A stretch of DNA of 64,000 nucleotides from Tubiluchus corallicola (Eukaryota > Animalia > Priapulida): assembly GCA_030141605.1 (NCBI GenBank), contig JAQGDQ010000637.1, forward strand, positions 57,933-121,932, read 5' to 3'. A program made the position numbers and the translations under genes. The notes beneath the pieces are model-generated. The model ran no database searches, had not been told where the DNA came from, and worked only from the letters and a program-made list of their open reading frames with translations. Below, piece after piece: positions 19,101 through 25,100 of the stretch (positions are counted from its first letter, which is position 1; each line of letters begins with the position of its first letter).

Positions 19101-22100
19101 GTTGTTCACAATGATCTGCAATCTCCAATAAAAAGGGGGACTTTTACAGGTGCACATGTTAATTTGTTGCAGGCCAGAGATGTGTCACTGAAATCACTGA
19201 AATTAGTTGATGATATTTCCAGTAGCATCATTAAACACAAGGTAGTACATGAAGAGGCAACTACGTTTACAACAGATTTAATGACAGTTTCACTGGAACG
19301 ACTGAGAGTTACTAAACTTGGAGGTAGTTTTACAAGTATTAGCTACATTCAGTATGACTCAGTTAGCAATTTTCGGCTTTTTGCTGTATTATTTTTGAAT
19401 CTTAGCACATTTTGTAATTAATAACTGTATTTTTTACTTCTTATAGGTGCCCAGAAAAGCATGAAAGACATTGGATATTTTAAAATGCCCCCCTCTGATG
19501 TGCTATCAACTGAACAGCATTCTCTTGGTGTAGAGGTAATTAAGTAATTTATTAAAATCTATCACATAATAAAAGAAATGATAGGCAGAAGATACAATAT
19601 CCAACACTATGCACCAATTAATTATTCAGCATACCGTAGGCCCTGCTTATATATATAAACTGGTTGTATGTTTGTAAAAATTTACCACCGATGATGACAG
19701 CAGTAACATTGCCGTAACGTTTTGACATGATTTTTAATTATGTAAATTCAAAGCTTTAATAAAGTTGTAGTGTTGTAACTATAAGTTTTTAACTGCTGTA
19801 GGTGTTTATAATTGTAAAATAATAAATAATCTATTAACTGTATCTAATCTTGCCATTAACGATAATCTCCGAATTACTCCATTGTTGTTAATTACATAAA
19901 TTGCTAATTAATTTACCATTTAGTGCCAATGCAAGCTGCTCATACTCAAATGCTTCTGGATGTTCTTTCACTTCATAGGCTCAATTTAATGCAACGGTAA
20001 TTCTTTATTTTTGACTTATTAACATTTCTGGCAGTTGTATTACATGGAGGACAATCCATTTGCCTGGAACGAGTCTGCAGTTCTGGTTGACACACCTATA
20101 GCTAGCATCTCTATCAGTGAACATAAGAATCTTTCACTTCATGAAAGGCAGTTTGAAAAACCGTTGGAATTTTTTCTGAAAGTTGCAGGTACATCAAACG
20201 TAGATCAATTTATACTCATATCTCGGTTTGCGAGACATCGCTTTTACGGATAGTGGAAAATTTAGACAGTGTCTGGTCTCTTAAAAAGACCAGCATTCTA
20301 CTACGGACACAGTCGTTTGTTCCGCGAGCTGACTGCTATTTGACCTGCCCTCACTTTGTTTATATCAATACATCAGTGTAATCAAGCAGCGTGTAACGAC
20401 TGTACTTAAAAGTGCAAAAAGAGTATAGTCAATTATGCGGTGTAATTTGAGTCAATTGTCGACAGTTTTATATACTTTTGGCATTGGAGTAGCCTGTACT
20501 AGACGTTTTTGACACAATAAGGCAATTGCTTCTAAATTACCGTTACTCTAATACAGGGAATACTATAATAATTGTCTTAGTATCGGAAACATGGACATTT
20601 GGCAGGCTTAGACCGACGTCGCCCCGATTTTGTCCGGCAAGCCGAAACATGAGTGTATAAATTTCTGAAATGCGACTGAGACATAAAATTTGGCATTTTG
20701 GTTTATGATTATTTTAGCCTTTCGTATTATGTGTATGCATGTTTGGTTACAGCTGATTCTGTAGAGTCCATCATGGCCACTATGATTAATTCATTATAAT
20801 GATAATAACAAAGATTTTGTTATTTTTATGAACAGCAACAATGTTGACCTTCTTAACGGTTATCATCACCTCAAGTAATGCATGTTACTGATTCTGTAGA
20901 TGCTAGTAATTTGAGCAGGCTTATTTTTTTCTAGGAATAAATGTTGTCACCGTTGATTCGTACATCTTACAGACGACTGGCAACGTCTCCAACAAACACA
21001 TCACAGTACATTCTTTCACAGTTGATGCTTATAGTAATGCTCTACTGATATTTCAACATTTACCAGTAGAAGTGTTGCTTAAGGTAAATGGTGTCATTAG
21101 GAAAGGTGATAATGTATTGAACCGCCGAACTTCAGTAGCTCACAAAATTTGAATCAACAAACATTCAGATTGATGCTTCAATTTTTTTATCTAAATACCT
21201 TTTATATTCTGTGAGTTAGTTAAGCATGGTTTTACATTCTTTGAATTACTTAAGCATTGTTTTACATTCTGTGAGTTAGTTAAGCATGGTTTTACATTCT
21301 GTGAATTACTTAAGCATTGTTTTGCATTTTTTGAGTTGCTAAAGCATTGTTTTGCATTGTTTGAGTTACTAAAACATTGTTTTGCGTTGCGTGAGTTGCT
21401 GAATCATTGTTTAACATTGTGAGTTGTTAAAACTTTGTTTTACATTATGTGAGTAGCTAAAACATTGTTTTATGATAAGTGAGTTGTTAAAACATTGTTT
21501 TACATTTTGTGAGTTGGTAAACAAGTACAATATAGTTACATTTTACTGATTTCTCTCTGTCATTAAAGAAGGGATTTGGTAAAAATTATTTTTGTAAAGT
21601 GCTAAGGGATTTGCACCTTGATAATATGTATAGAGATAATTAATATACAGCTTATATGCTTCATTTCAGGTGGTGTTCAAAAAGAATGTTAAGCCAACAA
21701 TTGGAGATTTTAGGGAAGACTCAAATACCGTGTATAACATACCTGTTATTCCAACTGATGCATATACCAGCAAGACTCCAGACAATGTCTTAAGTTTTTA
21801 TAATGATGATAATATTACTGCTGATTATTATGTTGGCTTGTTATTTGACTCATTCTACACCCCCTCGTGTTATAAGGCATCTTTGAAATGCAAGAGTGAA
21901 TTTACAGAATGTGCGGAAAATGCTACAAAGAATTGTTTGAATTCACAGATTTGCACAGACACTAAAATCTTATTGTGCAGTGTTGATAAGTGCCTAGAAA
22001 AAGAACCTTGTTATACAGACTGGGTGAAATATTGTAAGAAAGCATCAACTAACTGTCACAATGCATACAATGTTTGTTATGGATCTGTGCTGGACACATG

Positions 22101-25100
22101 TGACAACTACCACGCAATGTGCAGATCTAACTGTACATTATTTAAAAATACTTGCTTAAACCGCTGCCAAAAAATGTATGAAAATTGCTTTGTGGCACTT
22201 AATAACTCTTGTGAAATTCCAGCTCATTGTATTAGAAACACGGAAGCTGCTTGTGAGGAAACATTGTCTATTGAAGCTGACCGTGAAATCTGCAGACGTT
22301 TTTACCATGATTGCAGTAAAAACTACACAAATGACTGTGAGAAGAATTTCTTCAGATGCAATGGTTCGTGTTATCAATGTCACCCCAACTGCGACTCAGC
22401 ACTTGTTGAAGATTGTACGTCAGATTGTGACCAGACACTGTTGTACTGCAAATCACCTATCAAGGAATTTTGCAGGATGGAAACCATAGCCTACAGGAAA
22501 ATATGTGCCAATATCACCTGGCTAGACGAGCCTACAAACATCTCCAAACCAGAGGAAAACATTACCTCAGGTATTGGCAGGCAAACGAAGACATTCCCGG
22601 ATGCACTGGAAACTTCTTTGAGTGCAAAACATTATGCAGAAATTTTATATTACATAGCATGCAAATGTGCAATTTAGTTTTATTAGTAAACATGTAGTGT
22701 TTGTATTTTGTACTTTTAATAAAAACATATAATAGCATGAAACCCCATTATAATGCACCCTCCCTCTTTATAATGCCAAGCTCACTTATTGCCAAATTTT
22801 CTTGCAAAACAAAATGTCTATACATTTGCAAGACATGTATGTTTTAATGCACCGTGATATAACACCAAACCCACTCAATGCCAACATTTTTTGCAGTTCC
22901 AAAGTGGGTATAAAGAGGCTTGACTGTAGTTTCACTAGAATTCAGATTTCAATTTTTATTTTATAAATACTATCAAACCAGGAATGCACGCACCATTCTA
23001 CCCTGGCTTATCATTAAAGCATTGATTCAAAATAATTGTTTAGTTGCAGAGAATGTGATATATCAGATCTCAATACTGACTGCAGACGTGGAATATGCAG
23101 GTACAGCAGCAAGTGTGTCAGTACAGCTGCATGGAAAGCATAAAGACTCTGATAAAATTACCTTGGGCAGCTCTTTTGGAAGTTTTAGACGTGCACAGTA
23201 AGGAATTCTTAACATCTTTGTAATATCTGACATAATTTAAAATAGGCAAGTACATTTGTATACACATGTATCGTTCATATGTATGTTTGTATCGTTCATG
23301 CAGAGTGTTTAGTTTAACTTTTGATACTGTAACGTTTATATAGGTTATCCGATTTTCAATGATGCTAAATTTGATTGGTCATGGAAAAGTCTTTCTTCAG
23401 CAAAACCTATTTTATAAACATGTTTTGTCAATAATAAAGGTAGACTATAAAAATCAGAGAAATCTTGCTGGTTCACTATTGTGTCTCTTCAGAACTGATG
23501 ATTTCAACATATCCACTATATTTGTGGGGACGCTAAATTTCATAAGTGTTTGGCATGACAACAGATTCTTTGGACCCGCCTGGCTATTAGAGAAGGTTGG
23601 TATTTTTGTTCAGAAGTTTCTGCAAGTGCGTTTGTTGATCATGTCAATTTGTTCAAACTGGTTATTGCAGGTGTGTTTGCTGATCATGTCAGTTCATTTA
23701 GAATGGTTATTGCAGGTGTGTTTGCTGATCATGTCAGTTTATTTAGAATGGTTATTGCAGGTGTGTTTGCTGATCATGTCAATTTATTTAGAATGGTTAT
23801 TGCAGGTGTGTTTGCTGATCATGTCAATTTATTTAGAATGGTTATTGCAGGTGTGTTTGCTGATCATGTCAGTTTGTTTAGAATTGTTATTGCAGGTGCG
23901 TTTGTTGATCATGTCAATTTGTTCACGCTGTTTATTGCAGATGCATTTGCTGATCATAATCGGTCTAGTTTAAATGAGTACCTTGCTACATGTTGTTTTC
24001 AAAATTCCAGTAGCAAATTTAGTATGAAAATGAATAATTGTTTCAAGCTTGTGGTAACTTGACAACACACTGTGTGAGTGACAGCACTTGCTCTATCTAG
24101 CAGTAGTCACTAGCTGTGCAGCATACAGCGTGTTATTTCAGACATGTGCACATGGTCGCATGCGCACAACAGCCAAACACACCAGTGTGCTGGGCTGTGA
24201 AGCAAACAGTACTACCCTCACGTTCCCTGAACCTTACAAGTATAAATTAAGAACTAAAAAAAAGACTTATTATATTGAATATTATTGATAATATTGAATG
24301 AAAATAGGGGGAGCTGCAATTCCATAGTACCTATACACGAACCGCCACTGGGTTAGGGTTATTTGTTTTTTCTTGTGATTTTTTACTTGTGACTTTTTTG
24401 CGACTTTTCCTTTTACTTTTTATCAGTGACTTTTTAGCTGTGACATTTTTACCCAAGGCCTTTTTACCTGGATTCATTTTGGCATGTTTTCTCAGATTAA
24501 ACTTGGTGTTCGTGTTTTCTTGAGTTTTAGTTTGTTACGCCGTCAGTTTTCTCTACGTGATCTCATATGCCATCTGTCTATGTGTATGAATAAGTAAATT
24601 GTTTTAAAGGATAATTAGTTTTATAGGTTAATGGCGACAAACAAAAACTTCACTATGTTTCAGCTACGATGATAAATCAGTTAATTTATGCTTAGGTTGT
24701 AATCCGAAAGAGTTATCTGGAATATGCATGTCCGTGCATGACGTGGCTTGAGGGAGATCCGTCCACTAATTTACAGAAAATTCCGTGTTTTCTTGCTGCT
24801 AATTATACACCACCAGGTATAAATTAAACAACAAGCTAAACTGCTTTCAATTGGCTTTGGATGTAAACACTTTTCTTCATTTCTTTTAATACGTCTATTT
24901 ATCTGTGTTACTGTGTTAGTAAGACTGAAACCTTTATCACTGTATTTTGTTGAATATGTAAAACACATTTTAAAATATGATAATTGGCTTCTTACAGATG
25001 TTGAAATGTTGATTATGGTATCAATTATGGAATACGTTTGCAATGAAGAATCTTGCTCTTATTATTATCATGTAATTGGTCTCTGAATGCATTTGTCATG

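What the first reader, a model, noticed from the sequence alone, without database searches (positions are those of the whole stretch)
21868..22506. 32-cysteine periodic domain inserted in the GAIN domain
Seen: 32 Cys in 213 aa within one 901-bp exon, mostly spaced 7, 8 or 4 residues apart (e.g. [31 protein letters not shown]), with almost no Gly and several N-glycosylation sequons. This spacing does not resemble EGF, TNFR, WSC or LDLa motifs. Inference: it puts cysteines on one face of long alpha-helices, suggesting a disulfide-stapled helical hairpin or rod (up to 16 disulfides) projecting from the GAIN domain next to the extra PLAT. It may be an undescribed domain serving as a rigid lever or ligand-binding arm.
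Basis: partly seen in the sequence, partly recalled or inferred. Interest (0 to 1): 0.78.

Follow-up and report, generated by a model that had tools for sequence, protein, structure and literature searches.

The report
Cysteine-ladder arm inside polycystin GAIN domain
An invertebrate gene of the polycystin-1 (kidney-cyst receptor) family carries a 213-residue stretch with 32 regularly spaced cysteines, followed by a second PLAT domain, just before its self-cleavage motif; the stretch matched nothing in the databases searched and likely folds into disulfide-stapled helices forming an external arm that would bind a partner and tug on the receptor's activating stalk.

Summary
Observation confirmed: 32 Cys in 213 aa, 24 of 31 gaps are 7, 8 or 4, 2 Gly, 5 sequons, inside a canonical 901-bp exon. 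The host is a polycystin-1-like gene (36-exon model, 2,569 aa, no internal stop; no RNA support). The segment opens a 374-residue loop just upstream of the GPS, by motif reading in the last hairpin of the polycystin-specific GAIN subdomain C. It is followed by an extra, extracellular PLAT on a phase 1-1 cassette. Helical periodicity and a shared Cys/hydrophobic face are strongly non-random; two low-confidence AlphaFold models (pLDDT 36, 48) are helical. Three mirror-symmetric Cys runs suggest laddered hairpins (p about 0.02), but pairing and rod-versus-bundle shape are unresolved. No homolog was found in Pfam, PDB, ESM Atlas or 1.84 billion representatives, and no ortholog of the host gene, so conservation is untested. 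Closest structural analogues: laddered helical hairpins (vicilin-buried peptides, neurotoxin B-IV), much smaller. Function (binding arm coupled to the stalk) is inference. The scan had not noted this on other DNA. New variant of a known kind; interest 0.5.

The parts
21868..22506 (+). 32-Cys helical segment, 213 aa (model aa 972-1184)
21670..22570 (+). 901-bp exon (phase 0 to 1): GAIN-type strands, 9-aa linker, Cys segment, glycosylated linker; cannot be skipped alone in frame
21670..21867 (+). strands read as GAIN subdomain C (ending in the YYVGL strand at 21826-21840) plus 9-aa linker
   Evidence: assignment from recalled PKD1L motifs and topology in PMC11697300 suppl. fig. 3
21868..22077 (+). 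candidate hairpin A: exact mirror pairs C29-C42, C23-C48, C15-C56, C8-C63, C1-C70
22075..22212 (+). candidate hairpin B: C89-C96, C85-C100, C78-C107, C70-C115; paired CX3C motifs with Tyr at -4 and +4
   Evidence: AF2 runs one helix through this turn, which is against it
22312..22473 (+). candidate hairpin C: C168-C183, C164-C187, C157-C194, C149-C202, with C171/C175 in the loop
   Evidence: AF2 helix break at 170-176
22507..22570 (+). linker with three further N-glycosylation sequons
23050..23197 (+). extra (extracellular) PLAT, exon 1
   Evidence: Pfam PLAT E 6e-4, below the curated cut-off; weak match to coral lipoxygenase PLAT, E 0.11
23493..23595 (+). extra PLAT, exon 2
   Evidence: Pfam PLAT E 0.056
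24696..24816 (+). extra PLAT, exon 3 and linker; ends the 372-nt phase 1-1 cassette
25256..25359 (+). extended strand S10 and first half of the GPS motif
   Evidence: Pfam GPS E 0.003
27011..27241 (+). second half of GPS (His-Met-Thr cleavage-type triad), stalk, TM1
   Evidence: Pfam GPS E 0.15
20035..21083 (+). two upstream GAIN exons (20035-20188, 20935-21083)
   Evidence: phase-consistent; no Pfam support; motifs recalled
28787..30333 (+). canonical cytosolic PLAT after TM1 (three exons)
   Evidence: Pfam PLAT E 3.6e-5
1974..43750 (+). host PKD1-like gene model: REJ, GAIN, GPS, TM1, PLAT, TMs, polycystin and channel domains; 36 exons, 2,569 aa, 5' end not determined

Best explanation
The 32-cysteine segment is a coding part of a polycystin-1-like gene, sits on the outer side of the GPS cleavage motif in series with a second PLAT domain, and likely folds as antiparallel helices stapled by a ladder of disulfides, forming a stiff glycosylated arm that would engage an outside partner and pass load to the GAIN stalk. 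Shown: sequence, exon structure, position, periodicity, amphipathy. Predicted with low model confidence: all-helical fold. Inferred: disulfides (extracellular, even Cys number, sequons), hairpin ladders, the site in the last hairpin of GAIN subdomain C directly before extended strand S10, and a two-step origin (Cys segment grown within an existing GAIN exon, PLAT added as a phase 1-1 cassette). Speculative: the arm or its PLAT binds a protein or lipid surface, and because subdomain C also holds the stalk extension, pulling on the arm loosens or repositions the stalk and so gates the polycystin complex. My odds: disulfide-rich helical domain about 0.8; hairpin-ladder architecture about 0.6; binding arm coupled to the stalk about 0.4.
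For: Stop-free, all-AG/GT 36-exon model and purifying selection on the channel exon in a divergent copy (8 synonymous, 7 non-synonymous of the 15 listed differences, p 0.008 against 78% expected). Best Fourier angle 96.5 degrees overall and 96-101.5 in six sub-segments. Hydrophobic residue at +4 in 13 of 19 gaps of 7/8 (p 0.002); non-Cys hydrophobic moment points towards the Cys face (0 of 5,000 shuffles). Three exact mirror runs of 4-5 Cys pairs against 0.54 expected (p 0.014-0.019). Both AF2 jobs put helices at about 62-110, 119-132 and 136-160+, and breaks near residues 35, 133 and 173 coincide with mirror centres. Subdomain C lies between S9 and S10, S10 can run through both sandwiches and the stalk extension is its last strand (PMC11697300, passages and supplement legend). 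The stalk drives PC1 signalling (10.1101/2021.08.05.455255, abstract only). Some PLAT domains bind membranes more tightly under tension, others do not (PMC8740744, passages).
Against: pLDDT 36 and 48.5, pTM 0.22 and 0.27: the models do not fix a fold. AF2 does not break the helix at hairpin B's turn. A rival register centred on residue 132 scores as well (4 local pairs, 6 overall). The mirror statistic was chosen after seeing the pattern, the longest run alone is not significant (p 0.08), and helix limits for the amphipathy test were picked by eye. No ortholog, so no conservation test. The insert is tied to the GAIN by 9- and 16-residue linkers with a 22-residue linker in between, which could be too slack for a lever. 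The extra PLAT has Ala where the lipoxygenase PLAT has Asp in the AGTD motif (alignment; a calcium role for that Asp is recalled), so calcium-dependent lipid binding is doubtful. Subdomain assignment rests on recalled motifs.
Confidence: 0.4

Rival explanations
1. Compact multi-helix bundle that serves purely as a lineage-specific ligand-recognition domain (for example gamete, chemical or microbial recognition), with no mechanical coupling to the stalk.
For: No homologs anywhere searched, as expected of a fast-evolving recognition module; the AF2 model's 119-213 part aligns to generic three-helix bundles (Z 6.8, rmsd 3.7, 93 aligned); in a divergent copy 5 of 6 differences in the adjoining 103 nt of this exon change the amino acid; sea-urchin REJ relatives carry variable outer modules (PMC1934368 passages).
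Against: The 5-of-6 count is what random changes give (78%) and is not different from the channel exon (Fisher p 0.18); it lies in GAIN strands, not the Cys segment. The bundle match is at background level.
Confidence: 0.25
2. A stable but largely passive spacer or glycan shield: a tolerated expansion of a variable GAIN loop whose job is only to hold the extra PLAT away from the receptor.
For: GAIN loops vary widely in length, often over 50 residues (PMC11697300 passage); eight sequons in 235 residues; near-neutral charge, 26 basic and 28 acidic.
Against: 32 ordered cysteines and a patterned hydrophobic face are costly for a mere spacer.
Confidence: 0.17
3. The Cys stripe cross-links two or more chains in a parallel coiled coil (receptor dimer or covalent tether to a matrix protein) rather than folding back on itself.
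For: An 11-residue-type periodicity (3.69 residues) over residues 56-115 and a long unbroken predicted helix.
Against: Mirror symmetry and an even Cys count favour intrachain antiparallel pairing; polycystin-1 subunits occur once per channel (recalled).
Confidence: 0.07
4. A strongly diverged member of a known helical Cys-rich family (GFR-alpha/GAS1, frizzled CRD, saposin, glypican, albumin type).
For: These are extracellular helical disulfide domains (recalled); the searches were single-sequence and the models poor, so remote homology could be missed.
Against: No Pfam family at E up to 1, no PDB sequence hit, no fold match above background; no adjacent CC pairs, which albumin-type domains need (family feature recalled).
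Confidence: 0.07
5. Not part of a working protein: retained intron, assembly error or pseudogene.
For: No RNA evidence was obtained; exon limits were chosen by me; X1 shows divergent extra copies, so some copies may be decaying.
Against: 345-codon open frame in 34-36% GC DNA, non-random periodicity, phase-consistent flanking exons, stop-free whole gene.
Confidence: 0.04

Closest known systems
Polycystin-1 family (PKD1, PKD1L1-3, PKDREJ, sea-urchin SpREJ)
   Same: REJ, GAIN/GPS, TM1, cytosolic PLAT, further TMs, polycystin and channel domains.
   Different: 374-residue loop before the GPS with a 32-Cys segment and a second PLAT on the extracellular side; PMC1934368 states the PLAT is always intracellular in the 15 proteins it compares.
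Polycystin GAIN subdomain C (PMC11697300)
   Same: Extra beta-sandwich between S9 and S10; the strands flanking the insert fit this position.
   Different: No inserted domain is mentioned in the passages and supplement hits read; their roughly 2,700 models were not inspected.
Disulfide-laddered helical hairpins: vicilin-buried peptides / alpha-hairpinins, neurotoxin B-IV (bioRxiv 10.1101/2020.05.26.118075; PMC6410017); Aplysia attractin (recalled)
   Same: Paired CX3C motifs, nested ladder geometry, aromatic residues four before and four after the CX3C pair (Y81, Y104 here).
   Different: Those are free peptides of 23-55 residues with at most 4 disulfides; this is a 213-residue internal receptor segment with up to 16. 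No sequence homology detected; analogy only.
Lipoxygenase-type PLAT (coral 8R/11R-lipoxygenase)
   Same: Best, weak PDB match of the extra PLAT's first exon (E 0.11).
   Different: Here extracellular and inside a receptor; only 25 of 84 aligned residues match the gene's own cytosolic PLAT and the intron positions differ, so it is not a recent internal duplicate.

Membership tests
Polycystin-1 family (host gene) | REJ domain | tested here: met
   Pfam REJ E 4.9e-8 and 0.015 on two exons
Polycystin-1 family (host gene) | GPS motif directly before TM1 | tested here: met
   Two GPS halves, E 0.003 and 0.15; His-Met-Thr at aa 1380-1382, TM1 at about 1412-1430
Polycystin-1 family (host gene) | PLAT directly after TM1 | tested here: met
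   Pfam PLAT E 3.6e-5
Polycystin-1 family (host gene) | C-terminal polycystin/TRPP-like channel domain | tested here: met
   Polycystin_dom E 2.7e-4; PKD2 E 2e-44, PKD1L3 2e-28, PKD1 5e-7
Polycystin-1 family (host gene) | 11 transmembrane helices | tested here: inconclusive
   13 hydropathy windows above 1.6, none before aa 1412; crude scan
Polycystin-1 family (host gene) | Autoproteolysis at the GPS | not testable with these tools
   Needs expression; triad has Met where Leu is usual
Polycystin GAIN subdomain C (site of insertion) | Flanking strands align to subdomain C and extended S10 of PKD1-type GAIN | tested here: inconclusive
   Motif reading and position only; no reference sequence could be retrieved
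Alpha-hairpinin / vicilin-buried peptide fold | Pair of CX3C motifs | tested here: met
   C85/C89 with C96/C100; C164/C168 with C183/C187
Alpha-hairpinin / vicilin-buried peptide fold | Hydrophobic pair at -4 and +4 of the CX3C pair | tested here: inconclusive
   Y81 and Y104 fit; N160 and L191 fit half (feature)
Alpha-hairpinin / vicilin-buried peptide fold | Helix-loop-helix with I-IV/II-III disulfides | tested here: inconclusive
   Mirror spacing fits; AF2 breaks at the second pair but not the first, low confidence; connectivity needs mass spectrometry
Alpha-hairpinin / vicilin-buried peptide family | Small peptide cut from a seed vicilin precursor | tested here: not met
   Internal segment of an animal membrane receptor
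EGF / TNFR / WSC / LDLa repeats | Match to the family profile; Gly-rich beta-type spacing | tested here: not met
   0 Pfam families at E up to 1 while a true EGF exon in the same call scored 2e-8; 2 Gly
GFR-alpha/GAS1, frizzled CRD, saposin, glypican | Profile or fold match | tested here: inconclusive
   No Pfam or fold hit, but the models are too poor to exclude remote homology
Albumin / RECK CC-type domains | Adjacent Cys-Cys doublets (recalled) | tested here: not met
   Smallest gap is 3

The most novel reading that the evidence does not exclude
A new extracellular fold, a helical ladder of up to 16 disulfides with arms up to about 60 residues (9 nm), grafted with an outward-facing PLAT into the membrane-proximal GAIN subdomain, so that the receptor grips a lipid surface or partner outside the cell and levers its own tethered agonist: a built-in force handle on a polycystin.
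Probability: 0.12. Interest if true: 0.82.

Novelty: new variant of a known kind. Interest (0 to 1): 0.5.

Why it matters
How the ectodomain of polycystin-1 proteins releases or repositions the stalk is open. A natural receptor that tolerates 374 extra residues in GAIN subdomain C points to a loop where probes or force handles could be placed in other polycystins, and it breaks the published rule that the family's PLAT is always cytosolic. If the ladder is real it extends disulfide-stapled helical hairpins from at most 4 bonds in small peptides to as many as 16, a possible stable scaffold. The limit on interest: one gene in one organism, no orthologs, no expression data, no reliable model.

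Tried and rejected
No whole genome is held for this window, so paralogs could not be searched. Homology: Pfam 0 families for both segment queries; PDB sequences 0; ESM Atlas no usable hit, twice; 0 of 265 candidates at 526-2000 aa; 0 of 1.84 billion representatives at E 0.001. Two searches with conserved host exons also found nothing (0 of 520 candidates; no candidate), which shows the word-based search is blind to this gene family here, so one search is weak evidence. Foldseek: 0 of 29 and 0 of 46 rows at E 0.001; VIA-align: 0 of 48,161 at Z 8 or more. Complex prediction of residues 1-134 with 135-213 gave no verdict. No RNA holder listed; run X2 laid only on repeats and short unlike pieces. 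The divergent copy in X1 has no cover over the Cys segment; not interpreted. Internal duplication of the three hairpin units is not supported beyond the cysteines (p 0.14, 0.48, 0.73) nor at DNA level. Internal splice donors: ten GT sites tie with the real donor on a crude count, but none has G at -1 except one phase-1 site at 22363, and most arise from TGT codons; not pursued. An automatic boundary picker preferred longer PLAT exons (22939 acceptor, 23670 donor), also in frame; I kept the shorter, domain-consistent ones. Metal-binding reading rejected: extracellular, glycosylated, only one CXXC. Literature: no paper held all terms; some searches listed papers, and the passages read describe no such insert or extracellular PLAT. 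(attractin) listings only, none read. Earlier scan notes: none near, by words or by sequence.
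Full report
OBSERVATION. The stretch 21868-22506 encodes 213 residues with 32 Cys, 2 Gly and 5 sequons. Of 31 gaps, ten are 7, nine are 8 and five are 4; 26 of 31 lie in the helical set 3/4/7/8/11, against 10.3 expected for random placement (0 of 100,000 trials). It lies in a 901-bp AG/GT exon, 21670-22570, within a 345-codon open frame; the other five frames hold 6-25 stops and there is no underlying DNA repeat. Three short contigs of DNA run X1 match parts of the exon exactly.

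HOST GENE. Exon-wise Pfam scans gave REJ, two PLATs, a split GPS and the polycystin domain (19 queries, several hits below curated cut-offs because domains are split over exons). The last exon matches PKD2, PKD2L1, PKD1L3 and PKD1 chains. From coding cores I picked by eye, a 36-exon chain from 1974 to 43750 has canonical splice sites throughout, 2,569 codons and no internal stop (small exons may be missing and the 5' end is not fixed). In a divergent copy seen in run X1, 8 of the 15 listed differences in the channel exon are synonymous (p 0.008; the contig has 16 differences, 15 were shown), so the gene is or recently was under purifying selection. No RNA support was obtained. An earlier scan note calls the organism a likely non-arthropod invertebrate (unchecked).

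WHERE THE SEGMENT SITS. In the model, the strand YYVGL (aa 958-962) and the strand YNFSLSF leading into the GPS cysteine and tryptophan (from aa 1337) are separated by 374 residues: 9-residue linker, 213-residue Cys segment, 22-residue linker with three more sequons, 114-residue PLAT, 16-residue linker. The cleavage-type triad follows at aa 1380-1382 and the first hydrophobic helix at about 1412, so the insert is extracellular and on the N-terminal fragment. PMC11697300 (passages; supplement legend) describes a polycystin-specific nine-strand subdomain C between S9 and S10, with S10 able to run through both sandwiches and the stalk extension as the last strand. I place the insert in the last hairpin of this subdomain. 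That placement uses recalled PKD1L motifs; I could not retrieve a reference sequence to align. The extra PLAT occupies three exons totalling 372 nt between two phase-1 introns, the symmetric layout typical of shuffled extracellular modules (recalled), and could be skipped in frame. It shares 25 of 84 aligned residues but no intron position with the cytosolic PLAT, and its best weak PDB match is a coral lipoxygenase PLAT. The Cys segment, in contrast, shares its exon with core GAIN strands and cannot be skipped alone. PMC1934368 (passages) says the family's PLAT is always intracellular; searches for an extracellular one gave 0 papers or nothing relevant.

WHAT THE SEGMENT IS. Cys positions peak at 96.5 degrees overall and 96-101.5 degrees in six sub-segments. 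Hydrophobic residues fall at +4 in 13 of 19 gaps of 7 or 8 (p 0.002) and the non-Cys hydrophobic moment points to the Cys face (0 of 5,000 shuffles; helix limits chosen by eye). Two single-sequence AlphaFold runs are almost all helix over the segment and agree on helices near 62-110, 119-132 and from 136, but pLDDT is only 36 and 48.5. Three runs of exactly mirrored Cys pairs exist (sums 71, 185, 351), against 0.54 expected after shuffling the gaps (p 0.014-0.019; longest run alone p 0.08; statistic chosen after inspection). This is what nested disulfide ladders in helical hairpins would give. A fourth register (sum 264, turn near 132) fits as well and would give one long rod. AF2 breaks helices near 35, 133 and 173 but not at 89-96, so it supports two of the three short hairpins and also the long one. 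The pairing is unresolved. The three units are not detectably homologous beyond their cysteines.

HOMOLOGY. None found: Pfam, PDB sequences, ESM Atlas, 5.8-billion set at 526-2000 aa, 1.84 billion representatives, Foldseek, VIA-align (best Z 6.8, rmsd 3.7, 93 aligned, generic bundles). The word-based search also missed conserved host exons, so only one search is a reasonably strong negative, and it is single-sequence on a Cys-biased query.

MECHANISM. Best reading: a stiff, glycosylated, disulfide-laddered helical arm in series with a PLAT, hanging from the subdomain that also holds the stalk extension. Binding of an outside partner or lipid surface would load strand S10 and the stalk; the stalk activates PC1 through the TOP domain (10.1101/2021.08.05.455255, abstract), and some PLATs sense membrane tension while others do not (PMC8740744, passages). 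Shown: position, coding status, periodicity. Predicted: helicity. Inferred: disulfides, hairpins, subdomain. Speculative: binding and coupling (about 0.4). Against: slack linkers, a changed AGTD motif in the extra PLAT, no functional data. Rivals: compact recognition bundle 0.25, passive spacer 0.17, inter-chain cross-linker 0.07, diverged known family 0.07, artefact 0.04.

COMPARISON. The host is a member of the polycystin-1 family on every feature that could be tested clearly. The segment works like the laddered helical hairpins of vicilin-buried peptides and neurotoxin B-IV: paired CX3C motifs and, for the first pair, tyrosines at -4 and +4 (bioRxiv 10.1101/2020.05.26.118075, passages and section 10; PMC6410017, passages). 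It is not a member of those families: they are free 23-55-residue peptides with at most four disulfides. Attractin is a recalled analogue only. PMC3321182, PMC6294549 and PMC10904500 (passages) added nothing on inserts. Source data of PMC11697300 and bioRxiv supplements were not seen and could hold similar architectures.

VERDICT. A real, probably functional, so far unmatched cysteine-ladder helical domain plus an extracellular PLAT inside a polycystin GAIN region. New variant of a known kind. Surprising to a polycystin or GAIN specialist, but a single unexpressed example without orthologs or a reliable model: interest 0.5.

Noticed in passing
window 991-1104 and 1586-1838: An EGF exon with a phase-1 donor can splice either to the first REJ exon (1974) or to a nearer acceptor at about 1586, whose frame hits TGA at 1626-1628 but continues for 69 coding-looking codons ending in a hydrophobic, anchor- or signal-like stretch. 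Alternative terminal exon, separate gene end, or the receptor's own start.
   Followed up: partly
window 23050-24816: The extra PLAT is a 372-nt phase 1-1 cassette that could be skipped in frame; it has three cysteines near its end, an odd number.
   Followed up: partly
run X1 on window 21560-21772, 23352-23499, 42639-43199: Contigs 3-10% divergent, two of them at higher depth than the identical ones, suggest further copies or a very divergent allele of this gene.
   Followed up: partly
window 15019-15318: The GAIN-A region exon contains a basic run ending in RAVK preceded by KREKR, a possible furin-type site that would give a second ectodomain cut (site rule recalled).
   Followed up: no
window 44781-47970: Neighbouring gene with signal peptide, LRR-like first exon, LRRCT-like cysteines, Thr-rich stalk and one TM; no significant Pfam hit for the first exon.
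   Followed up: no
window about 51200-55330: SLC6 / sodium:neurotransmitter symporter gene exons (Pfam SNF E 3e-17 for 53738-54049).
   Followed up: no
window 8370-8600, 15520-15850, 17050-17500, 42400-42630: Several copies of one GC-richer interspersed repeat inside introns; very high contig depth at 42250-42720.
   Followed up: no
window 10880-11287 (-): 135-codon antisense frame in an intron, probably transposon debris; no significant Pfam hit.
   Followed up: no
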